DNA from: a virus
Virus record (IMG/VR): IMGVR_UViG_3300027833_000022
Span: 39,159 to 103,158 of that record
Strand: one strand, 5' to 3'
Length of the DNA stretch: 64,000 nucleotides
The notes under the pieces: generated by a model
Database searches by the model: none
Told to the model about the DNA's origin: nothing
What the model saw: only the letters and a program-made list of their open reading frames with translations
Shown here: positions 3,001 to 16,991 of the stretch, piece by piece
How positions within the stretch are numbered: position 1 is the first letter of the stretch
How the letters are laid out: each line of letters begins with the position of its first letter
Made by a program: the position numbers and the translations under genes

Positions 3001-3020
3001 TGATTGGTATTTACTGCCAT
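1..3020 (-). CDS. Large PKD/Ig-like repeat virion structural protein (>1000 aa, truncated at left window edge)
   Basis: Not in the ORF track, consistent with no stop inside the window. Manual translation from ATG at 3020 gives MAVNTNHTQNKITSSENDLTLD...; PKD-type motifs YTINWGDG, YTWNWSDG, YRWDFGDG, VYNWNDS. Confidence 0.8.
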   Translation of the reverse strand, partial: MAVNTNHTQNKITSSENDLTLDTVGIENNINVSNNRITDLLDPVDNQDAVTKVFLETSIENIETYGDSQTSNLAEVIENIRVNTYVKSVDFSSNNVSGGAGLTATLSTTVVGNANRYTINWGDGVTTTATTDSTPSHVYDNWIGSPFDVNVTAFNESGVGEGSSASKLIENYIEIFTPDPVVTFAAYSQAVGGNQLTYWDDGDTVYFENTTSNTLGMGAVVQYTWNWSDGTPDDIINNETSAGGVNGSRLAHTFAISTESEVQRTVTLTLDSHTTAQQSILPLDDNSSYLLYDTHTPDTSSNIVTGINEESINGLSVIFTNNTESSIGNYSTFGTTYRWDFGDGTITTVNAGTNQSGDTGQTITHKYTLAGNNTAQDFTGNLQVINSHTSSPFTSTDFVIHVEPDVRATIAGSADTISNRSGDNQYDVYDGIDYTGVNRALVTVSNTSEHGDSHVYNWNDSSGNDTEVGLDSVNHDFTGVGAGNYQLDFTVSGTPDITTQTDSANLTFQVNAIPSAPSGLSSKTITLADPAQGHSPKLAHGFTDNSATNPLVAGASLQTSTARRYTNGTLDTSIASNSFNGLAGTVTAIVNGVADGDKTFTTALNENGTFSSLVISDQRDAHNTISTSTYPTGFFQTFDSKITKPFSEYTTGVNDQRIEHSTTGNTNYVTVVCDDHTSVPSNDVSNATLTENVAGSYRYISGIPYYNTGNPQLTLSGVTVNNWIGQAYKDTSNVFEISNGTNSESTYGATISTQYKTYSDLEDIVYLTNNIPAANTLNYQYADQTINITSSNIAAVETLKVRTYNVNGTGNYAHLVEKIQVHTSSPTGILEYAIPVASGLGNGVITDGAIRIADFLSDSTDTPTINSATDYSATPFIGAIDVSGTQEATVRWGKITHNTVDYGTGYLPLGPDRSADTGTQYFTFAFRRRVVANFDVIIAATGISGMWIASPGTQVDNSSGAGGWLDCSIQYAGVGLPGSDTAAGGNGSDGCALTGSDVIQTGTSIN

Positions 3021-3099
3021 TTATGTACCCCTATTACATTGTTTCTATTAATCGTTGTATTATTGCTTTGTCTTATTCGACTATATTCTATGTTACTAT

Positions 3100-3636
3100 T
3101 TATACTGTTATAATTGCTCCATTTACAGAGGTCACAGCCCAACCCGCAATTGTATAAACTATGGTAACAGATTCACCTATATTTGTCAAGTTAAATGATG
3201 TATATCCCAATGAGGTAGTTGGGGTTATAACTACAGTCCCAGTTGGTGTTCCTGTAACTGCAATTACCTTTATCTGTCCTTCTGTACCATTGCCCAATGC
3301 TAATGCTAAACTTGTTGTTGCATTAAGATATGATACACTTGAATTGGCATTAATTGTGGTTGTCGCCACGGTAGGACTCACATCGATAATAACACCTGAT
3401 CCTGTATTGCCCAATGTGACTATATCACCATTTGCAACAATACTTCCGTCTACATATAAATGCCCACCAATATATCCACCACCAGTTACATTTAGTGCTG
3501 CATCTCCAAGAGTCGGAGTTGCTAAATTCACGTTTGAAATATTGGTGATATTGAGTTTTGAACTGATTCCACTAATGGTATCTATCGTACCTAATATATG
3601 TAGTGAACCACTATCTGGGTTTATTACTGATGACAT
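3100..3636 (-). CDS. Putative virion structural/fibre-associated protein
   Basis: Gly/Thr/Val-rich beta-type sequence (GDAALNVTGGGYIGGHLYVDG); GGAG SD and ATAAATA late-type boxes upstream. Confidence 0.6.
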   Translation of the reverse strand: MSSVINPDSGSLHILGTIDTISGISSKLNITNISNVNLATPTLGDAALNVTGGGYIGGHLYVDGSIVANGDIVTLGNTGSGVIIDVSPTVATTTINANSSVSYLNATTSLALALGNGTEGQIKVIAVTGTPTGTVVITPTTSLGYTSFNLTNIGESVTIVYTIAGWAVTSVNGAIITV

Positions 3637-7717: not shown

Positions 7718-8524
7718 TTATTGTTTCATACCGCGCTTCTCAGCACCATGACCGCGAGTTTCTGGCTTCAATGAAGCGCCTTCGCCAGGATGTGTTACAC
7801 CCATGTCTTTTGCTGATTCGTCCGATAAGCCTTTCTTAGAGCCTTCAGATCCTTTTTCGCCAGTTGGAATTACTTTTCCACCCATGTCATTTTTGCCTGC
7901 AACTGGTGATGCTTTACCATCATCTCCTGCTGGCATTTCTGAAGGATGCATTCCATCTTTACCAATCTTTGTAAGATCAGCGGCTTCTTCTAATTCTTCA
8001 TATTGCTCTTCAAATTCTTCTTCTGGCTCAATGTCAGATGCGAAATCATCGGCTGGAAGTTCATCAGATAACTCTTCTTTTTCATCGTCCATCTCATCGC
8101 CCATCAACTGTGCGAATTCTGCTTTAAGATCAGCAAGTGCATCTTCAACGCTTAACATTGCGTCTTCGATTGCTGCTTCAGATTCTGGCTCCATATCCAT
8201 GTCGCCTTCAGCGTCCATGTCCATTTCATCATCAGATGCTAATTCAAATTCTGCTTCTGATTCTCCATCTTCGTCTTCCATTGCATACTCTTCTTCTGCT
8301 GCAATTTCTTCTTCGAATGCATCAACATCTTCGTCAAAATAAGATTCTTCAATCTCTTCTTCTTCTGAAATGTCATCTTCGACAATTTCATCCTGCTCCA
8401 CAAGACCTGACCATATCTCGCGAGCTTTGTCTACAAAAGCTTCATGTAATAAATCAGATGCTTTATCACCTTCTCCATTTACTAGGCTCTCAATGATCTT
8501 TGAATAACGATCTTGTACGCTCAT
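7718..8524 (-). CDS. Highly acidic prohead core protein (gp67/gp68 position)
   Basis: Very D/E-rich 268 aa directly upstream of gp21 in the head operon. Confidence 0.6.
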   Translation of the reverse strand: MSVQDRYSKIIESLVNGEGDKASDLLHEAFVDKAREIWSGLVEQDEIVEDDISEEEEIEESYFDEDVDAFEEEIAAEEEYAMEDEDGESEAEFELASDDEMDMDAEGDMDMEPESEAAIEDAMLSVEDALADLKAEFAQLMGDEMDDEKEELSDELPADDFASDIEPEEEFEEQYEELEEAADLTKIGKDGMHPSEMPAGDDGKASPVAGKNDMGGKVIPTGEKGSEGSKKGLSDESAKDMGVTHPGEGASLKPETRGHGAEKRGMKQ

Positions 8525-8730
8525 TTTATATTCTCCGTTTAATAAAATTTTATAAATCTATTTATTTAACTAATTCCACAGGCTACTAGGGAATTAATTT
8601 ATTACAGTAGTATTTAATACTTTTTGTCTATAACTAGCCAAATACACGTTTAAAATCGCGATTTTACAAATTTTTTACAAAAAAACAATTAATTACAGTA
8701 TAATCTATTACTTTTATTTAGCAACATGTT

Positions 8731-10612: not shown

Positions 10613-12673
10613 TTACGTGATATTATTAACTGATCTTTGATAATCAGTAGAGCGTTGTATGCTCTTCATTGCAGATTTCATCTGTTTCAACATCATTAAA
10701 GTTTGCTTTTTGGTGTTTACAATATCATCTAAATGTTGTGATATATTATTATCACCAGTATTGGTATTTCCTACCATCATTTTTGTTTTATTGGTATCTG
10801 TTATACTACCATGACTAGTTGGTGTGAATAATTCTGCACCTTTCTCTCCTACAAGATAGGGCTTATCTTTTGTAACGGGACCACCTAATTCTCTTTTGCC
10901 TTCAACATTAGGTTTCTCAACAGAGAGGAAAAAAGATGATGAAACATATGCCGCCAAAGCCGATAGTATTTTTTGGTTTAATGAAATATCATCATTATTA
11001 AACGGTGATGATGTAATATCTGCAACATTCACAACAGTTTCAACCGCACCTTTGGCGCTACTCATTACATCTGTTATTGTTTCTGCTCCCGATTTTAATC
11101 CGTCTGCAAGTTTTTCTGCCATTTCAGATGCACTATCTAAATTATAAACAAATGCATCTTGAATTGTCATAAATCCTGTTTTCATGTTGTTCATTGCTAC
11201 TGTCATTTCACCCGAGGTGTCTGATTTCTCTTCTATTTCTTTAAGATATGCCGAATATTCAGACTTGCTCATGCCAATCATTTTTTTCATTTGCTTATCT
11301 ACCATAACACCACCTGCTTTCAACTGTTGTACGATGTGCTGGACTGAACCTACTACTACATTACTTGATCCTACTTCTGCATCACGCATTTTTGCCATTT
11401 CTTTAACGAGCATGTCTTTTGCTGCGTTTATGTCACCAGACCTAAACACTGCATTAACTCTATCAGTAAATCCATTATTTGCAGTATCAAGTGCTGTAGC
11501 CAAATCTGGTCCCAATGCAACTTTCATATCAAAATCCTGTGGTGTATCTGCCACTCTAAAGATATAATCATTAAATCTATCTGATATATCTTTTCCGACA
11601 GGTCCCATCGAATTTTCAAGTAATGCAAATTGTGATATGAAAGATCGTGCTATCTCTGCATGACCACCACCCGCTTCGTCCATTGTTGCCAATGCTGCTG
11701 CAACTTGTGGTTGTGACAATGCTGCCAATCGTTTCTGTAATATTTCTGATCTATTCTCGCCTGTCAAACTTGCTAATGCAGTTGTTTCAATCATCAAATT
11801 ATGAAATCCTGCTTCAACACCATCTTGAGTACTCAATAATGACATGTCTTTATTTAATGTCATACGCTGTATGTTTACATAATCAGCTAACACTTCTGCC
11901 ATTTCTGCTGATCGTAAACCATAGTCACCAAATTTATCACCTATATTATTAACAGACTTAAACATTGATGTAAATGCAGTCGTACCGCTTGATACTCCAT
12001 TGCCCAATGACTGTAATGCAACACCATTTTGACTAACTAATTTAGATAACTCAGTATACGATAGACCCGAAGATATTGCTGCTTGCTTCAATGTTTCATA
12101 AGGAGATGTATCATCAAACATAATTGCACCAGAATTTATCATTGTCTCTTGTGCTTTTGCAAATTGTTCTAGTTGACCTGCTTGAAACGCAGCCCATGCT
12201 AATGTGCTTGCACCTGCTGCGCCAAACGCGATACCAGCAGTTTTCATCATTTTTCCTACTAATTTGTTGCTTTTTACATCATCAGTCAATCCCTTTGCAC
12301 TACCAGAAATAGCAGAACCAAAGTCACCAATCATATCTATCATAGCAGTAAGTGGTGCATCGGTATTACTAAATTTGTCAACCACATTTTTAGCGGATGC
12401 GGCTGCACCGACTATCTTTTCATTGAAAGCTTTCTTCTTTTCTTCTGATACTTCTTCATTACCCGAAGCATATTGCTTTGCAATATCTCGAATATCATTA
12501 GATAATTGTGATACATTTAAGGTACTTGATTTCATCCATTTTGATATTACGCTCGTCATAAGATTAGATGTGCCAGTTAATTCTGCTATCTTGCTGAGTG
12601 TTTCTTCACTAGCCCATTTAGGTATTTGAATTTGTATTCCTTCAACTTCGATAGTTTGAGTTTTATCCGCCAT
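10613..12673 (-). CDS. Tape measure-like protein (paralog 2)
   Basis: Ala/Gly/Met-rich helical protein; C-terminal RELGGPVTKDKPYLVGEKGAELFTP is typical of tape measure proteins. Confidence 0.75.
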   Translation of the reverse strand: MADKTQTIEVEGIQIQIPKWASEETLSKIAELTGTSNLMTSVISKWMKSSTLNVSQLSNDIRDIAKQYASGNEEVSEEKKKAFNEKIVGAAASAKNVVDKFSNTDAPLTAMIDMIGDFGSAISGSAKGLTDDVKSNKLVGKMMKTAGIAFGAAGASTLAWAAFQAGQLEQFAKAQETMINSGAIMFDDTSPYETLKQAAISSGLSYTELSKLVSQNGVALQSLGNGVSSGTTAFTSMFKSVNNIGDKFGDYGLRSAEMAEVLADYVNIQRMTLNKDMSLLSTQDGVEAGFHNLMIETTALASLTGENRSEILQKRLAALSQPQVAAALATMDEAGGGHAEIARSFISQFALLENSMGPVGKDISDRFNDYIFRVADTPQDFDMKVALGPDLATALDTANNGFTDRVNAVFRSGDINAAKDMLVKEMAKMRDAEVGSSNVVVGSVQHIVQQLKAGGVMVDKQMKKMIGMSKSEYSAYLKEIEEKSDTSGEMTVAMNNMKTGFMTIQDAFVYNLDSASEMAEKLADGLKSGAETITDVMSSAKGAVETVVNVADITSSPFNNDDISLNQKILSALAAYVSSSFFLSVEKPNVEGKRELGGPVTKDKPYLVGEKGAELFTPTSHGSITDTNKTKMMVGNTNTGDNNISQHLDDIVNTKKQTLMMLKQMKSAMKSIQRSTDYQRSVNNIT

Positions 12674-14693
12674 GTATATTCTCCGATGTTTTTATCTTTT
12701 CTACTTCTTCAACAACTTGTCGTAAGTGGTCAACAAGTGAACTATCTAATTGGTACATATTTTTAAACTTCATACCAACTATATTTAACTCATCTACATA
12801 TACTTTTTTACTACCTATAGGTGAATCAGGATCTCTTATATTAGCATACCATCTACCATCAGGACGCTGAATTGGAACCGGACCACCGCCTTCTGCAAAT
12901 TGCTCTGGACTGAAATGTTTGTTTAAAATATTATATGCTGATAAATATTTTTGTGCATCAACTTTATCTTCATCTATGCTGGTTGGTTTATATTTTCCTA
13001 TATTACTTATATAGGCATTTGCCTCCGCAGATGGATGTCCTTGTCCCATGCGCTTTGGTAATCCTTTAGAAGTTGTATATGGTTCTTTTTCATCATTATC
13101 ATCATCTTCTGACGGTATCAATCCAACAAGTTTAAGTCCACCTTCAACTGATCTCAGTGCACCTTCAAACTTTTTAACAGCGATTGCACCTAGTGCATAA
13201 CCAGGAGTTAATTCATGTACCACCGATCTAAATGCAATTCGCGCTGCATCTATTGCATCAATTGAACTATCTGCTTGTTCAGTCAATGCTCTGACATTCT
13301 CTAACCCAGAATCTAATTGATTTTTTGTCAAATCCATGAATGCTTCTGGTGCTATACGTGCTTGTGCTATTAAATCGTTTGATTGTTGAACTATAGGGTC
13401 ATCTCCATATCTGGGACTCGCCTTTGATATTGATGTTGTTAATTCTTTTACTCTCATCACCAATTCTGGTTGTGTTAGTTGCCCTGTTCCAGATTGTTCC
13501 AATATATCTGTAAATTTCTTTGACACATCAGGACCAAGTGCACTCAACATATTAATCATTTCTTTAGGCATATTATTTAATACAGATGAATCTATATTGA
13601 TATCTTTCAAAAAATTATTAAATACTTGTTCTGTTTGCTCTCCAAATTGAGGACCTAGTACAGTGCTGAATAGCATCTTTATATTTGCTCCAGTATTTCT
13701 AACATTCTCTTCTGCATTTTTTCCGTACTTATCTGACAGATATTTGGCATTCATAGATATTGCTGTCATAAAATCTATATTGGTCATCGCTTCACTTCGC
13801 ATTGCCAATAATGCACTTCTCTGATCACCAAATTTTTCTGCAAGAAACGTAGTCATTGCACTACTTGATTCAAAATTCTTTCTTATTTTATCTTTCGCCA
13901 CTTGACCAAATTGTTCTAATTCACCTGTCATGTACATTAAATTGGCTTCTTCTAACAATCTTGCAGTTTGTTGTTCAACATTGTAACCAAAATCACCCAT
14001 TGTCTTTGATGCATCAGATTCTACTTTTCCAGCAAAATTTATAAATTGAATTGTAGTATCCATCAAGTCTGCTGGCATATTTGCAAGCATGACTTTATTT
14101 CCTGTCATAATTTTTGACATTTCTTGCATACTCATGCCAACGCCCGCTAATGCTTCTCTCATAACAGTATATTGATTCATATTACCAACAACACCGCCAT
14201 AGTCTATTATTTGTCTTAATCCTTTTTCTTGCTCGGACATAAGTTTTGCATATATTGCGGTTACGCCAACTGCTGCAACTGCGGCTCCTGTGCCAAAATT
14301 TAATAACGATGACACGACTGCCCCCTTAGGACCAAGATATTTTGAAAACGAAGTTATACCACCAATTGTGTCATCTATTGCTCCGACACTCAGTTTCAAT
14401 AATTCTGCGGTTGCTACCAATGGATCAGTATCTCGTGTAGCAACACCAAACAAATTTTTAGATGCGGATTCCATCTTTATAATTAGTTTGTTTGTTTTTT
14501 TAAATGATTTTTCAGAATCTTCAAATTCTTTTTTAACAACATCATAATCAAACGCAACACCAGTTAATGACTTAAATGTCTTCTTTAACTTATTATTATC
14601 AGATTCGGTTGCTGCGGCAATCTTCCCTAATGTATCCTCACTTGCCCAAGGATAACGCTGGTGAATCTGCCTGATGTCGTCTTCTATTGCCAT
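12663..14693 (-). CDS. Tape measure-like protein (paralog 1)
   Basis: Helical; shares the WASE(D/E)TLxKIA N-terminal motif and GD(F/Y)G segment with the downstream gene. Confidence 0.65.
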   Translation of the reverse strand: MAIEDDIRQIHQRYPWASEDTLGKIAAATESDNNKLKKTFKSLTGVAFDYDVVKKEFEDSEKSFKKTNKLIIKMESASKNLFGVATRDTDPLVATAELLKLSVGAIDDTIGGITSFSKYLGPKGAVVSSLLNFGTGAAVAAVGVTAIYAKLMSEQEKGLRQIIDYGGVVGNMNQYTVMREALAGVGMSMQEMSKIMTGNKVMLANMPADLMDTTIQFINFAGKVESDASKTMGDFGYNVEQQTARLLEEANLMYMTGELEQFGQVAKDKIRKNFESSSAMTTFLAEKFGDQRSALLAMRSEAMTNIDFMTAISMNAKYLSDKYGKNAEENVRNTGANIKMLFSTVLGPQFGEQTEQVFNNFLKDINIDSSVLNNMPKEMINMLSALGPDVSKKFTDILEQSGTGQLTQPELVMRVKELTTSISKASPRYGDDPIVQQSNDLIAQARIAPEAFMDLTKNQLDSGLENVRALTEQADSSIDAIDAARIAFRSVVHELTPGYALGAIAVKKFEGALRSVEGGLKLVGLIPSEDDDNDEKEPYTTSKGLPKRMGQGHPSAEANAYISNIGKYKPTSIDEDKVDAQKYLSAYNILNKHFSPEQFAEGGGPVPIQRPDGRWYANIRDPDSPIGSKKVYVDELNIVGMKFKNMYQLDSSLVDHLRQVVEEVEKIKTSENIHGG

Positions 14694-14704
14694 AATTAAG
14701 TACC

Positions 14705-14722
14705 TATTTAATAGGATAAATA
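14705..14722. promoter_or_regulatory. Back-to-back putative late promoters
   Basis: TATTTA (TAAATA on -) at 14705-14710 and ATAAATA at 14716-14722 between divergent tape measure and gp26-like genes. Confidence 0.45.
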
Positions 14723-14775
14723 CAGTTACGAAACTATTTTATCACTTTACTTACTATTTATATGGAGTACAAAAA

Positions 14776-15606
14776 ATGAGTAACAATCCTTTATTGAATG
14801 CGTACAAAGTACCATCAACTTACATAAGTCTACCTTCTGGTGGGAAATATTACACCGAAAAGCCTAAATTAAGTGCTGACGGTGAATTGGCAATCTACCC
14901 AATGACAGCAAGAGATGAAATAATCTCAAAGACACCAGATGCATTATTTAACGGAGAAGCAACTGTTGCGTTACTTGAATCATGTTGTCCAGATATAATT
15001 GACCCTAAATCAACACCCGTTAATGACTTAATGGTAATATTACTTGCTATACGCAAAGCGAGTTATGGAGATGGAATAGACATTGATATTAAATGCCCAT
15101 CTTGCAGTGAATTTAACATGCTTGAAATGGATATAAACCGAATTCTTGGATCTGTGAAATCTAACGAAATATCAAACACATTGAAATTACAAGATAAATT
15201 TGATGTCAAGTTGAAGCCCTATAATGTGAATGATAGAACATTAATACAGATACAACAAATCCAACAAGAACGAATGATACAAGAACTTGCGAATTCTGAT
15301 TTATCGGATGAGGATAGAAATAAAAAATTTGGAAAAACATTTGTAGATATATCCACGCTTACAATTAATCTTATGGTAAATTGCATTGTATCTGTATCAT
15401 TCGATGGTGATGTGATAATTGATAGGGAAATTATTAGAGAATGGTTACATAATATAACAAAGTCTGATTATAAAGAGATGAAAGATCATATTGAAAAAAT
15501 CTCAGATAGTGGCATCAATACTGAATTTAAGGCAGTATGTCAACACTGTTCACATGAATGGGAATCTGAGGTAGAACTAGATATGTCAAATTTTTTCGCA
15601 GGCTGA
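14776..15606 (+). CDS. gp26: gp26-like baseplate hub/tail assembly chaperone
   Basis: LPSGG, PMTARDE, IRKASYG, two CxxC motifs, C-terminal NFF; start moved to ATG 14776 (GGAG SD at 14764). Confidence 0.8.
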   Translation: MSNNPLLNAYKVPSTYISLPSGGKYYTEKPKLSADGELAIYPMTARDEIISKTPDALFNGEATVALLESCCPDIIDPKSTPVNDLMVILLAIRKASYGDGIDIDIKCPSCSEFNMLEMDINRILGSVKSNEISNTLKLQDKFDVKLKPYNVNDRTLIQIQQIQQERMIQELANSDLSDEDRNKKFGKTFVDISTLTINLMVNCIVSVSFDGDVIIDREIIREWLHNITKSDYKEMKDHIEKISDSGINTEFKAVCQHCSHEWESEVELDMSNFFAG

Positions 15607-15803
15607 TAGCAACAAGTCAGCCGCACGAAATACCAGACATACTGAACAGATATAAAAATGATCTAACTAAACTAAATTCTAATTATATGGATATTCTCAT
15701 TATTTCACAAGGTGCATTGACATACGAATCATTGATGTCTATGCCATTACCCATGATTGACTTATTTGTCAAGAGACATAATGAAAGAAATAGCGAATCA
15801 TAA
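15591..15803 (+). CDS. -1 frameshift extension of the gp26-like chaperone (lambda gpT-type)
   Basis: Slippery T-TTT-TTC at 15591-15597; the -1 frame is open for 70 codons (FFRRLIATSQPHEIPDILNRYKNDL...GALTYESLMSMPLPMIDLFVKRHNE). Confidence 0.7.
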   Translation, partial: FFRRLIATSQPHEIPDILNRYKNDLTKLNSNYMDILIISQGALTYESLMSMPLPMIDLFVKRHNERNSES

Positions 15804-15959
15804 TCGTTCACTATTTCATCATAGTATTTCTTTGTTTAAGGAACAACATAATAATGTAGTCACATAAACATTGCTTCGCAATGAACATCTTCGTAAAATA
15901 TCTCATTCGTTACACTCATTCGTATTTTACTTAATGTTGTTCTTTAAACACATACTGTT

Positions 15960-16490
15960 TCTAACTGTTATCAATGATATATAATGATTGGGCTATTGTA
16001 TAACTATTATCTATTTTTCCAGGATCTTGATCCACACTTCGCTTATGCAGCGAAAGTGAAAAATTTGTTAAATGAAAAGAAAGTTTTTTCCTATCACCCA
16101 ATCACACTTCGATATAACAAACCCAATTTTACACTTGGGGGAGGCGGTTACGCTGTACCTCTTATTACATGCTGCTTCAAGCAACGCAAGAACATCAATT
16201 TCCATATCGTCGGATTTTGACTACTCGTAGGTTTCAATAGTTCAGAAGAGCCTACTCTTTTCGGTTGGTCAGACCAGTGCAATGACCAGAGAGAAACACG
16301 TGGAAGTCCATCGGCTTCGCCTCAACGGCGGCAGATTCATCACGGATACGGTATCAGTATCATCCATCTAAGTTTTATAGGGTTCTGAGGGGAGTTGCCA
16401 ATGTGGGGTGTTTAAGTGCTTGTTTAGAGGGTTGTTTAAGTTTTTTGTTTAAGTTTTTTGTTTAAGTTTTTTGTTTAAGTGTTTATTCGT
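15960..16490 (-). ncRNA. Putative large structured non-coding RNA / origin primer transcript
   Basis: No credible ORF, locally GC-enriched, many stem-loops, dedicated sigma70 promoter at 16497-16524. Boundaries approximate. Confidence 0.55.
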
Positions 16491-16494
16491 TTAA
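16408..16494. repeat. 12-13-bp tandem repeat array (core TGTTTAAG)
   Basis: TGTTTAAG at 16433, 16446, 16459, 16472 (13-bp period), plus a copy at 16409 and degenerate copies at 16421 and 16480. Confidence 0.85.
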
Positions 16495-16496
16495 TA

Positions 16497-16524
16497 AGTA
16501 TACATGATTTTTAGTGCCTGTCAA
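16497..16524 (-). promoter_or_regulatory. Sigma70-type promoter firing into the non-coding locus
   Basis: TTGACA-16 bp-TATACT on the minus strand, just after the GIY-YIG stop. Confidence 0.7.
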
Positions 16525-16532
16525 GTATAATT

Positions 16533-16991
16533 TCATTTGCCTGAGGATTTAGTTTCGTTTAGGTGTTCTTTAAGAACTTTTGAGCCGCCAACTCTAACAT
16601 TGATGATTCCATTATAGTAATCATCTGTTTCAAGTACTCTGCGTTCAAACTGTTCGCGTGCTTCTAGATAACTGGCAATGCCTCTTGTTGGGCACATATG
16701 AATAATTTCTCGTGTGAAACTATCTTTGCCTAGTTCTTCAACGTCTGCATTAAGTCTATCACTGGAACCAAAATATTCTTTCCAATCACTTTCTTTAGTA
16801 CCACGTCTTTTATTCTTTTTTCCTTTCAGTGGCGGTTTAGTAGTTTTAAACTTTGCTAGTTTTTTACCTACATACAACATACCACTGACTGTATTTGTTA
16901 TTACATAAACAAATGCTTCGCATCCTTCCGGCAACTTTTCTACTACATTACCTTCATATGTCCATTCATATGTTACATTATTTTTTTCCAC
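16533..16991 (-). CDS. GIY-YIG family endonuclease
   Basis: AFVYVITNTVSGMLYVGKK, YFGSS, conserved E (SYLEAREQ) and YYN. Confidence 0.85.
   Translation of the reverse strand: MEKNNVTYEWTYEGNVVEKLPEGCEAFVYVITNTVSGMLYVGKKLAKFKTTKPPLKGKKNKRRGTKESDWKEYFGSSDRLNADVEELGKDSFTREIIHMCPTRGIASYLEAREQFERRVLETDDYYNGIINVRVGGSKVLKEHLNETKSSGK

What the first reader, a model, noticed from the sequence alone, without database searches (positions are those of the whole stretch)
15960..16524. Promoter-driven ~500-nt hairpin-dense non-coding locus: candidate novel large ncRNA or RNA-primed origin
Seen: in an otherwise densely coded genome, ~700 bp has no credible ORF. A TTGACA-16-TATACT promoter fires leftwards into a locally GC-richer tract with serial stems on the minus strand: GGAU..AUCC, CGCC-guuga-GGCG, GGUCA..UGACC, GUAGG..CCUAC, UGCU-uga-AGCA, GAG-guaca-GCG-uaac-CGC-CUC, CCCAA..UUGGG, CACUUUCGCU..AGCGAAGUG. 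I see no hallmark motifs of RNase P, tmRNA, tRNA or group I/II introns. Known: T4 origins and ColE1 use promoter-derived R-loop primers, and phages encode large ncRNAs such as GOLLD and ROOL. Inference: either an undescribed large structured RNA or a folded primer RNA for replication.
Basis: partly seen in the sequence, partly recalled or inferred. Interest (0 to 1): 0.85.

Follow-up and report, generated by a model that had tools for sequence, protein, structure and literature searches.

The report
Twin-box structured RNA gene in phage
The gene-free gap behind a small nuclease gene of this uncultured giant T4-like phage holds a real folded non-coding RNA gene of about 0.5-0.6 kb with its own promoter. 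It belongs to a widespread phage RNA family that is almost absent from RNA catalogues, and its job is still unknown.

Summary
Window 15607-16532 has no credible gene. A near-consensus sigma-70 promoter (16524-16497, minus strand) points into a tract that is 98-100% identical among relatives whose genes are only 80-90% identical.

Folding energy is not unusual (z -0.04 to -0.98). The proof is covariation. On a structure-blind alignment of 29 homologues, 28 of 62 pairs show compensatory changes, with 96% of cells paired against 28-47% in slid controls.

The RNA runs leftwards and has these parts:
- a leader with tandem CUUAAACA repeats
- a 5' domain (16378-16257)
- a central domain (16260-16108), shared by 114 fetched loci and always behind a small nuclease gene
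- a 3' part that carries the word GGAAAAA twice
- a tail ending in a hairpin (15883-15869)

Rfam has no match here. Rare relatives carry the orphan Polynucleobacter-1 motif (RF01718) in place of this 5' domain.

I found no support for a replication origin:
- the leader RNA is G-poor
- the repeats are an expansion of a single-copy RNA leader motif
- the GC-skew turn lies 4 kb away

Function is unknown. I favour a trans-acting scaffold RNA, perhaps working with the upstream nuclease.

This scan has met the same family before on other DNA.

The parts
16497..16524 (-). sigma-70-type promoter: -35 TTGACA at 16524-16519, 16-nt spacer, -10 TATACT at 16502-16497. The start near 16490 is inferred.
   Evidence: One search gives 11 of 12 matches. 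Both hexamers are invariant in A1. An equivalent TTGACA-17-TATxxT site occurs in about 20 distinct subfamily loci. No transcript data.
16409..16484 (-). Leader with tandem repeats. The unit is CUUAAACA plus an A-rich spacer, period 13, about 6 copies, read on the RNA strand.
   Evidence: TRF. Copy number differs among close relatives. A single copy of ACUUAAACA sits at the same leader position in L122, L157 and L131. Other lineages carry GGCACA repeats instead.
16379..16408 (-). Leader segment UUGGCAAC...CCUCAGAACCC (UUGGCAAC at 16403-16396; the UAUAAAAC that follows lies at 16380-16373, at the start of the 5' domain). It holds one copy of the GGCA(C) leader box of the family.
   Evidence: The same unit occurs three times in the L254 leader. 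GGCACA repeats occur in the main family.
16257..16378 (-). 5' domain, type A, with five helices:
- P1
- P2 GAUAC/GUAUC
- P3 CGUG/CACG
- P4, a long hairpin tipped by CGCC-GUUGA-GGCG
- P5 GGUCA/UGACC
   Evidence: Model R3 was built without the window. It scores 32.0 bits over its full length, with E 1e-5 in 205 kb and 4e-8 locally. P3 differs on both sides at three of its four pairs from the subfamily's CACC/GGUG, yet all four still pair.
16108..16260 (-). Central domain with 7 helices. It contains the invariant GGUAC-N-GCGUAACCGCC motif.
   Evidence: Models R1 and R2. Covariation.
16086..16092 (-). Twin box X1, GGAAAAA.
   Evidence: The same word recurs at X2. There are 11 word classes across the subfamily, each identical at both sites (0 of 20000 permutations).
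16036..16059 (-). 3' hairpin CACUU(U)CGC-UGCAUAA-GCGAAGUG.
   Evidence: Helix 12 of A10 is 94% paired, and two of its pairs show double changes.
16023..16034 (-). Small hairpin GGAUC-AA-GAUCC.
   Evidence: Read from the sequence. L254 has GCAUCGGAAUCC at the same place. Weakly supported.
16015..16021 (-). Twin box X2, GGAAAAA.
16103..16111 (-). First copy of the 9-nt repeat CGAAGUGUG. The second copy is at 16033-16041, inside the 3' hairpin.
   Evidence: The repeat is specific to the window lineage. L254 matches at 7 of 9 positions and other relatives share only GUGxG.
15902..15923 (-). Tail repeats, ACGAAUGAG twice.
   Evidence: Invariant in close relatives. Present in L254. Similar ACGAAG-type repeats occur in the main family tail.
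15869..15883 (-). Terminal hairpin CAUUGC-GAA-GCAAUG followed by UUUAU. This is the probable 3' end.
   Evidence: Terminator-like site. Analogous hairpins with a CGAAG loop (GACACGAAGUGUC) end the main-family RNAs. L254 keeps the stem with a different loop. The 3' end is not mapped.
16533..16991 (-). Upstream small GIY-YIG nuclease gene of 152 aa.
   Evidence: Pfam SegE_GIY-YIG, E 4e-33. It has 5738 homologues; the 120 best-scoring are 73-95% identical. A nuclease gene lies upstream of the RNA in 78 of 78 RNA-anchored loci.

Best explanation
Window 16490 to about 15866 (minus strand) is a stand-alone gene for a structured non-coding RNA of about 0.5-0.6 kb. I infer that the host sigma-70 polymerase transcribes it early, from the promoter that begins eight bases past the stop codon of the small GIY-YIG nuclease gene.

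The RNA has these parts:
- an unstructured A/C-rich leader of tandem CUUAAACA repeats
- a 5' domain
- a central domain, which is the hallmark of a large family of RNAs in uncultured aquatic T4-like phages
- a 3' part that shows the same 7-letter word (here GGAAAAA) on either side of a conserved hairpin
- a tail with ACGAAUGAG repeats and an end hairpin

Shown: conservation, base-pair covariation, family membership, identity of the twin words, and linkage to a nuclease gene.

Inferred: it acts in trans as a rigid scaffold. The scaffold would present short single-stranded words to a lineage-specific partner, which could be a protein or a nucleic acid. The likeliest link is to the small nuclease encoded just upstream.
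For: 1. Conservation. Window 16000-16300 is 98-100% identical to two relative lineages whose flanking genes are 80-90% identical.

2. Covariation.
- One divergent homologue alone gives 11 of 51 pairs with double changes.
- On 30 distinct model-aligned sequences, 88% of cells pair against 65% when shuffled, and 39 of 43 pairs show double changes.
- On a MAFFT-only alignment that includes the window, 96.4% pair against 87% shuffled and 28-47% slid. There, 28 of 62 pairs show double changes against 17.5 +/- 2.1.
- Many G-U pairs fit only the minus strand.

3. Family. The central-domain model hits 35 of 75 loci fetched through the nuclease gene. It hits 79 of 79 tested loci fetched through an RNA motif.

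4. The 5' domain model, built without the window, finds the window at 32 bits.

5. Twin words. There are 11 word classes, and each is identical at both sites. The mean shared stretch is 6.8 nt within an RNA against 3.6 nt between RNAs, with 0 of 20000 permutations as high.

6. The promoter is conserved across the subfamily.

7. Of 78 distinct RNA-anchored loci, 65 have a GIY-YIG gene just upstream on the same strand. The other 13 have a PD-(D/E)XK nuclease gene (PF24608) in that slot.

8. The window has lost the 162-aa ORF that follows the RNA in relatives, yet it keeps the RNA intact.
Against:
- Folding energy is no better than shuffled sequence.
- Both RNA ends are inferred.
- The partner of the repeated words is unknown, and no complementary site exists inside the RNA.
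- The complete genome of Methylophilales phage Melnitz-3 has a 70%-identical GIY-YIG gene but no detectable copy of the RNA. So that nuclease does not need the RNA.
- The nuclease linkage could reflect homing of selfish nuclease genes next to a conserved target rather than a partnership.
Confidence: 0.6

Rival explanations
1. The RNA gene is real, but its link to the nuclease is not functional. Free-standing homing-type nuclease genes (GIY-YIG or PD-(D/E)XK) repeatedly settle beside this very conserved RNA gene because its sequence makes a good cleavage target. The RNA does something unrelated.
For: Two unrelated nuclease families occupy the same slot, even beside closely related RNAs: L307 has PD-(D/E)XK and L109 has GIY-YIG. 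The protein matches the SegE homing-endonuclease Pfam family. Melnitz-3 has the nuclease without the RNA. From general knowledge of T4-type phages, different homing-endonuclease families often take turns in one intergenic slot.
Against: All 78 RNA-anchored loci carry a nuclease, and none has an empty slot. The GIY-YIG protein is unusually conserved for a selfish gene, with 5738 homologues; the 120 best-scoring are 73-95% identical. It also lacks a separate DNA-binding domain.
Confidence: 0.2
2. The RNA is a cis-acting leader (long 5' UTR or attenuator) that controls genes downstream on the same strand, such as the 162-aa ORF present in relatives.
For: Weinberg et al. 2010 marked Polynucleobacter-1 as possibly cis-regulatory (PMC2864571). 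Relatives have a 162-aa ORF on the same strand after the RNA. In the window lineage, the 9-nt repeat CGAAGUGUG could pair alternately with the 5' arm of the 3' hairpin.
Against: The window lacks that ORF through a deletion of about 500 bp, and the next gene converges on the RNA, yet the RNA is 98-100% conserved. A terminator-like hairpin ends the RNA. A length of 0.5-0.6 kb with several independent domains is far beyond known leaders.
Confidence: 0.08
3. The locus is a replication origin. Either the promoter-derived RNA primes DNA synthesis (as at T4 oriF/oriG or ColE1 RNA II), or the TGTTTAAG repeats are iterons for an initiator protein.
For: A strong promoter is followed by an AT-rich repeat tract with marked strand asymmetry. 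ColE1 RNA II shows that a primer RNA can be highly structured (general knowledge). The locus lies beside the recombination genes 46 and 47.
Against: The leader RNA is G-poor: plus-strand GC skew there is +0.62, the opposite of R-loop-prone transcripts. Repeat number varies from about 4 to 9 among near-identical phages. The repeat is a single-copy RNA leader motif in other family members and is replaced by GGCACA repeats in others. The 13-nt period is out of helical phase. No initiator gene lies beside it. The GC-skew minimum is at about 20 kb and follows the gene-direction switch.
Confidence: 0.06
4. The tract encodes a small protein, the 78-aa plus-strand ORF at 15984-16220. Alternatively, its conservation is only a footprint of recent gene conversion around the nuclease gene.
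For: The 78-aa ORF is intact in all close relatives. Against L002 and L006 the nuclease gene is itself 94-100% identical.
Against: No ribosome-binding site precedes the ATG. Conservation runs well past the ORF end. In more distant homologues, indels of 1, 2 and 16 nt fall inside its span. The longest open frames differ in frame and length between homologues. Substitutions follow minus-strand base pairs. Against L005 the nuclease gene is only 82-93% identical while the core is 98-99%. Pfam gives nothing significant.
Confidence: 0.03

Closest known systems
Polynucleobacter-1 RNA motif (Rfam RF01718; Weinberg et al. 2010, Genome Biol 11:R31, PMC2864571)
   Same: In L049 a bona fide RF01718 match (63 bits) sits just behind the orthologous GIY-YIG gene. 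28 nt later it is followed by a match to the window's central-domain model. In L254 a sub-threshold RF01718 match (20 bits) precedes a central domain and tail very like the window's. So RF01718 occupies the place that the window's 5' domain occupies in the same kind of RNA. Function is unknown for both.
   Different: The window does not match RF01718 even at E <= 10 in a 231-nt search. The window-type 5' domain model does not hit the RF01718 regions of L049 or L254. Only 1 of 31 family records reaches the Rfam threshold. RF01718 covers 141 nt, and the shared central domain, twin boxes and tail are not catalogued.
Large ornate bacterial and phage ncRNAs of unknown function (GOLLD, ROOL, OLE, raiA)
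   Same: It is a long, multi-domain RNA with strong covariation. It is phage-encoded like many GOLLD and ROOL copies, and no biochemical function is assigned. This comparison rests on general knowledge.
   Different: There is no similarity in sequence or structure model: none of these Rfam families matches. The RNA is smaller than GOLLD. It has features not described for them, namely twin identical words, leader repeats and a fixed place behind a nuclease gene.
Nuclease-associated guide or scaffold RNAs (IscB/IsrB/TnpB omega-RNA, HEARO)
   Same: A structured RNA of several hundred nucleotides is encoded directly beside a small nuclease gene on the same strand. Short hypervariable words are embedded in a conserved scaffold.
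   Different: The nucleases here are GIY-YIG or PD-(D/E)XK proteins of 140-183 aa, not RuvC/HNH proteins. The variable words are only 7 nt and are duplicated. The RNA has its own promoter. No transposon ends are seen. Nothing here tests binding.
T4 oriF/oriG and ColE1 RNA II (RNA-primed origins)
   Same: A strong promoter reads into an AT-rich tract, and the RNA is structured as in ColE1 RNA II.
   Different: The leader is G-poor. The repeats belong to the RNA family's leader. There is no skew signal at the locus. The element is conserved as a folded RNA across very many phages.

Membership tests
Polynucleobacter-1 RNA (Rfam RF01718) | Score at or above the curated gathering threshold (37 bits) of the Rfam covariance model | tested here: not met
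   No match at gathering threshold. No match at E <= 10 on 1.2 kb or on 231 nt. No match in the whole 103-kb record.
Polynucleobacter-1 RNA (Rfam RF01718) | Homology of the 5' domain, tested in reverse with a model of the window-type 5' domain | tested here: not met
   R3 hits the window (32 bits) and the L043/L052 group. It does not hit L049 or L254, which carry RF01718-type 5' domains.
Polynucleobacter-1 RNA (Rfam RF01718) | Same genomic and molecular context: 5' part of a longer RNA behind the small nuclease gene, followed by the shared central domain | tested here: met
   L049 has RF01718 at 3016-3159 and the central domain at 3187-3325. L254 has it at 8224-8364 and the central domain at 8407-8550. 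In the window the 5' domain is at 16378-16257 and the central domain at 16260-16108.
   The window was the seed of R1 and R2. Independent homologues covary with it. 114 loci match.
   GGAAAAA at 16092-16086 and at 16021-16015. There are 11 word classes, and the permutation test gives 0 of 20000. The main family shows the same with xCNUGAU words.
   In the window the GIY-YIG gene ends 8 nt before the promoter. In 78 of 78 RNA-anchored loci a GIY-YIG or PDDEXK_15 gene lies upstream.
RNA-primed replication origin (T4 oriF/oriG, ColE1 RNA II type) | Transcript prone to a stable R-loop (G-rich RNA over an unwinding element), and a replication-linked skew switch at the site | tested here: not met
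   The leader RNA is G-poor: plus-strand GC skew is +0.62 at 16375-16524. The cumulative skew minimum is at about 20 kb. Initiation itself cannot be tested with these tools.
Iteron-type origin (T4 oriE, plasmid-like) | Conserved iterons with a cognate initiator gene nearby, placed outside a transcript | tested here: not met
   The repeats lie downstream of the promoter. They vary from about 4 to 9 copies among near-identical phages. They are single-copy or replaced in other family members. No initiator-like gene is adjacent.
Omega-RNA / HEARO-type nuclease guide RNAs | RuvC/HNH nuclease partner, and a terminal guide of 12 nt or more that varies between copies | tested here: not met
   The partner genes are GIY-YIG or PD-(D/E)XK. 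The variable words are 5-9 nt (mostly 7), internal and duplicated.

The most novel reading that the evidence does not exclude
The RNA is the RNA subunit of a new kind of phage nuclease particle. The small GIY-YIG or PD-(D/E)XK nuclease encoded just upstream, which lacks a DNA-binding domain of its own, is recruited by the folded scaffold. The two identical, fast-changing 7-letter words act as programmable specificity elements. They would pair with two copies of one short sequence, for instance to bring together or cut two DNA or RNA sites that share that word.
Probability: 0.05. Interest if true: 0.9.

Novelty: new variant of a known kind. Interest (0 to 1): 0.62.

Why it matters
Few large, multi-domain RNAs have been found in bacteria and phages, and several of them turned out to be enzymes, guides or assembly scaffolds.

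This family is abundant in uncultured aquatic T4-like and giant phages, with well over a hundred loci fetched here. It is represented in Rfam only by a 141-nt fragment of a minority form, and in the paper library searched here (open-access PubMed Central papers and bioRxiv preprints) only the 2010 paper that first catalogued that fragment mentions it.

Three features make its function testable:
- two copies of one word that changes between lineages but never between the two sites
- short repeats in the leader that expand and contract
- a fixed seat behind a small nuclease gene whose family can be swapped

The window adds a variant with its own strong promoter, a distinct 5' domain and an expanded repeat array. 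It has also lost the downstream ORF, and this natural deletion argues against a simple leader role.

Tried and rejected
- Rfam at gathering and permissive thresholds gave nothing meaningful in the window.
- Folding energy against shuffles gave no signal, so it was not used as evidence.
- blastn of the window RNA and of two other family members against 50,697 phage records gave no match. No cultured model phage was found.
- An exact scan for three spaced TGTTTAAG repeats in IMG/VR gave no hit.
- Sequence-only iteration with nhmmer stalled at four loci. Covariance models and a motif scan were needed.
- A search for an internal site complementary to the twin words found none that covaries. UUUGACA in hairpin P5 is constant whatever the word. 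In the main family the variable box positions do not track the 5' strand of the closing helix of the central domain (helix 5 of the model structure).
- The 9-nt repeat CGAAGUGUG, which I first took for the family's twin box, proved specific to the window lineage. The family-wide twin is GGAAAAA.
- Melnitz-3, the nearest cultured phage with the nuclease, has no copy of the RNA or of RF01718.
- Literature searches found only the 2010 catalogue paper for Polynucleobacter-1 and nothing on this RNA.
- The protein-coding reading of the 78-aa ORF was rejected.
Full report
**Context**

The window is part of a 103-kb IMG/VR virus record estimated to be 28% complete, which implies a genome of roughly 0.35 Mb. 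Its gp26-like baseplate protein is about 30% identical to those of Rak2-, GAP32- and CBB-type giant myoviruses.

Around the finding lie these features:
- a gp26-like gene at 14674-15606 (+)
- a 926-bp stretch without a credible ORF at 15607-16532
- a 152-aa GIY-YIG gene of the SegE Pfam family at 16533-16991 (-)
- a 68-aa ORF
- gp46-like and gp47-like genes (-)

**Checking the observation**

The promoter TTGACA-16-TATACT is present on the minus strand at 16524-16497 with 11 of 12 matches. GC content rises to 0.40-0.48 at 16075-16450, against about 0.33 nearby. Thirteen-nt tandem repeats with the core TGTTTAAG fill 16409-16484.

The minimum free energy of the tract is no better than that of shuffled sequence. 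The z-scores are -0.04 and +1.37 for 15960-16496, and -0.98 and -0.53 for 15995-16400. So a list of hairpins read from one sequence is not evidence in itself. Rfam gives nothing, even at E <= 10.

**Conservation**

Eight IMG/VR loci encode a gp26 protein that is 79-85% identical. Together with the window they give three distinct sequences in this region. Window 16000-16300 is 98-100% identical to both other lineages. The surrounding genes are 80-90% identical, and in the L005 lineage the adjacent nuclease gene is only 82-93% identical. The core is therefore under much stronger constraint than the coding sequence, and co-conversion with the nuclease gene does not explain it.

The relatives carry an extra 162-aa ORF on the RNA strand between the RNA and gp26. 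The window has lost about 500 bp there, with the junction near 15826.

**Finding homologues**

The GIY-YIG protein has 5738 homologues; the 120 best-scoring are 73-95% identical. An alignment of 24 of them fetched 80 IMG/VR loci. Sequence search from the window reached only L059 and L063.

Aligning the window with L063 already gave 11 of 51 predicted pairs with compensatory double changes and three broken cells. A covariance model of the central 153 nt (R1) then found L049 (30.9 bits, E 2e-6) and L057. The rebuilt model R2 found 35 of 75 loci, all on the strand of the nuclease gene and just downstream of it.

On that model-fitted alignment:
- 88.4% of cells pair, against 65.3% in shuffles and 33-47% in slid controls
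- 39 of 43 pairs show double changes

An exact scan for the invariant motif GGTACNGCGTAACCGCC in IMG/VR and in metagenome contigs returned 229 loci. Of these, 121 are true homologues by nhmmer. All 79 that I tested match R2.

**Independent structure test**

I aligned the window, its two close relatives and 26 diverse homologues with MAFFT alone (A10). RNAalifold predicted 62 pairs, 28 of them with double changes.

Counting on that alignment gave these results:
- 96.4% of cells paired, against 87.2% in shuffles and 28-47% in slid controls
- 161 cells with double changes, against 39.6 +/- 5.8

Several helices are 100% paired with multiple pair types. Examples are GUAGG/CCUAC, GAGGU/GCCUC and CCCAA/UUGGG. 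Many conserved G-U pairs would be A-C mismatches on the plus strand, so the RNA is the minus strand.

**The 5' domain and Polynucleobacter-1**

One locus, L049, has a bona fide RF01718 match (63.4 bits) 80 nt after the nuclease gene. The central-domain match follows 28 nt later. L254 has a full-length but sub-threshold RF01718 match (20.1 bits), followed by a central domain and tail very like the window's. Only 1 of 31 family records reaches the Rfam threshold.

A model of the 5' domain (R3) was built from 24 subfamily sequences without the window. It finds the window at 16378-16257 with 32 bits over its full length. Helix P3 is changed on both sides at three of its four pairs (CACC/GGUG becomes CGUG/CACG).

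R3 does not hit L049, L254 or the main family. The shared central domain is therefore preceded by at least three 5' domain types that cannot be linked by these models:
- type A, as in the window
- the main-family type
- the RF01718 type

The window is not a member of RF01718. It belongs to the larger, uncatalogued family in which RF01718 is a minority 5' module.

**Twin boxes**

In the main family, a word of the form xCNUGAU occurs twice, 46-72 nt apart. It takes the forms ACAUGAU, UCAUGAU, ACUUGAU, UCGUGAU, AUAUGAU, UCUUGAU or GCAUGAU, and is always the same at both sites within one RNA.

In the window's subfamily, the two sites flank the conserved 3' hairpin. The words found are:
- GGUGAAG
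- UGUAAA and UGUAAAAA
- UGUCAAG and AUGUCAAG
- UGCCAAG
- CCAAG
- GGAAAA
- GGGAAAU
- AGAAAAA
- GGAAAAA in the window, at 16092-16086 and 16021-16015

Across the 11 word classes, the mean shared stretch within an RNA is 6.8 nt, against 3.6 nt between RNAs. No permutation out of 20000 reached the observed sum.

The more obvious 9-nt repeat CGAAGUGUG (16111-16103 and 16041-16033) is specific to the window lineage.

**Leader and tail**

The tandem CUUAAACA array lies downstream of the promoter, so it is part of the transcript. It varies from about 4 to 9 copies among near-identical phages. A single ACUUAAACA sits at the same leader position in L122, L157 and L131. Other lineages have 3-5 GGCACA repeats instead, and the window keeps one UUGGCAAC box.

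The tail carries ACGAAUGAG twice, then the hairpin CAUUGC-GAA-GCAAUG followed by UUUAU. This tail is conserved in close relatives and in L254. It parallels the ACGAAG repeats and the GACACGAAGUGUC hairpin of the main family. The RNA therefore probably ends near 15866.

**Linkage to a nuclease gene**

I used the sample fetched through the RNA motif, which is unbiased with respect to genes. Of 78 distinct loci with enough upstream DNA, 65 have a GIY-YIG homologue (40-73% identical) on the same strand, ending a median of 302 nt before the motif. In the other 13, the gene in that slot is a 170-183-aa PD-(D/E)XK endonuclease of Pfam PF24608. The swap has occurred even between near relatives (L307 against L109).

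The complete genome of Methylophilales phage Melnitz-3 has a 70%-identical GIY-YIG gene but no copy of the RNA. The facts fit either a functional nuclease-RNA module or repeated homing of nuclease genes beside a conserved RNA gene. I cannot separate these two readings.

**Origin hypothesis**

- The leader RNA is G-poor.
- The repeats are a feature of the RNA family.
- The repeat period of 13 nt is out of helical phase.
- No initiator gene is near.
- The cumulative GC-skew minimum lies at about 20 kb, where gene direction switches.

I found nothing in favour of an origin beyond the promoter-plus-repeats layout.

**Coding hypothesis**

The 78-aa plus-strand ORF has no ribosome-binding site. It is outrun by the conserved tract. 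In homologues it is broken by indels of 1, 2 and 16 nt.

**Earlier notes of this scan**

Earlier notes had already named a 'twin-box phage RNA, Polynucleobacter-1 relative' on other DNA. I used them as a lead and re-derived each claim here.

I add four points:
- The window's 5' domain is a separate type that neither model links to RF01718.
- The window's tandem 'iterons' are an expansion of a single-copy leader motif.
- The nuclease slot is filled in 78 of 78 loci, by one of two unrelated families.
- A cultured phage carries the nuclease without the RNA.

**Verdict**

This is a real, promoter-driven, multi-domain non-coding RNA gene. It is a new variant of a widespread and almost uncatalogued phage RNA family, and its function is unknown. 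I put 0.9 on the RNA gene itself. I put about 0.6 on the overall reading as a trans-acting scaffold that displays short words. Within that, I put about 0.3 on a true partnership with the upstream nuclease.

Noticed in passing
window 15820-15830; L005:7114-7614: Relative to all eight close relatives, the window lacks about 500 bp. That stretch holds most of a 162-aa minus-strand ORF, which has only a weak DUF6217 hit below threshold. The ORF lies between the RNA and gp26.
   Followed up: partly
window 15833-15849 and 15934-15950: A 17-nt inverted repeat, 94% complementary, encloses the tail repeats and the end hairpin. Its left arm abuts the deletion junction. The right arm is not conserved in relatives, so the repeat may be specific to the window.
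   Followed up: partly
window 16533-16991 (-): The 152-aa GIY-YIG protein has 5738 homologues; the 120 best-scoring are 73-95% identical. That is far more uniform than typical mobile Seg endonucleases, and the protein has no separate DNA-binding domain.
   Followed up: partly
L140, L149, L159, L307, L318 and eight more loci: In 13 of 78 RNA loci the GIY-YIG gene is replaced, in the same slot and on the same strand, by a 170-183-aa PD-(D/E)XK endonuclease (PF24608).
   Followed up: yes
L330 (Methylophilales phage Melnitz-3, MZ577098.1, 30449-30889): This cultured OM43 phage encodes a 70%-identical GIY-YIG protein. Its complete genome has no match to the central-domain model or to RF01718.
   Followed up: yes
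L086 and L082, between the GIY-YIG gene and the RNA: An insertion of about 560 nt separates the nuclease gene from the RNA in these two loci. Its content was not examined.
   Followed up: no
L254:8087-8260: The leader of this RF01718-like relative holds three repeats of a unit of about 35 nt (GGCAC...CCUCAGAAC...UAUAAAAC). The window keeps one copy of that unit at 16403-16373.
   Followed up: partly
window about 20000: The cumulative GC skew turns at about 20 kb, where the minus-strand gene block (about 6-20 kb) gives way to a plus-strand block. This is probably driven by transcription direction.
   Followed up: no
window 14674-14693: The 676-aa minus-strand ORF (12663-14693) and the gp26-like plus-strand ORF (14674-15606) overlap by 20 nt at their predicted starts. 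One start is probably called too early.
   Followed up: no
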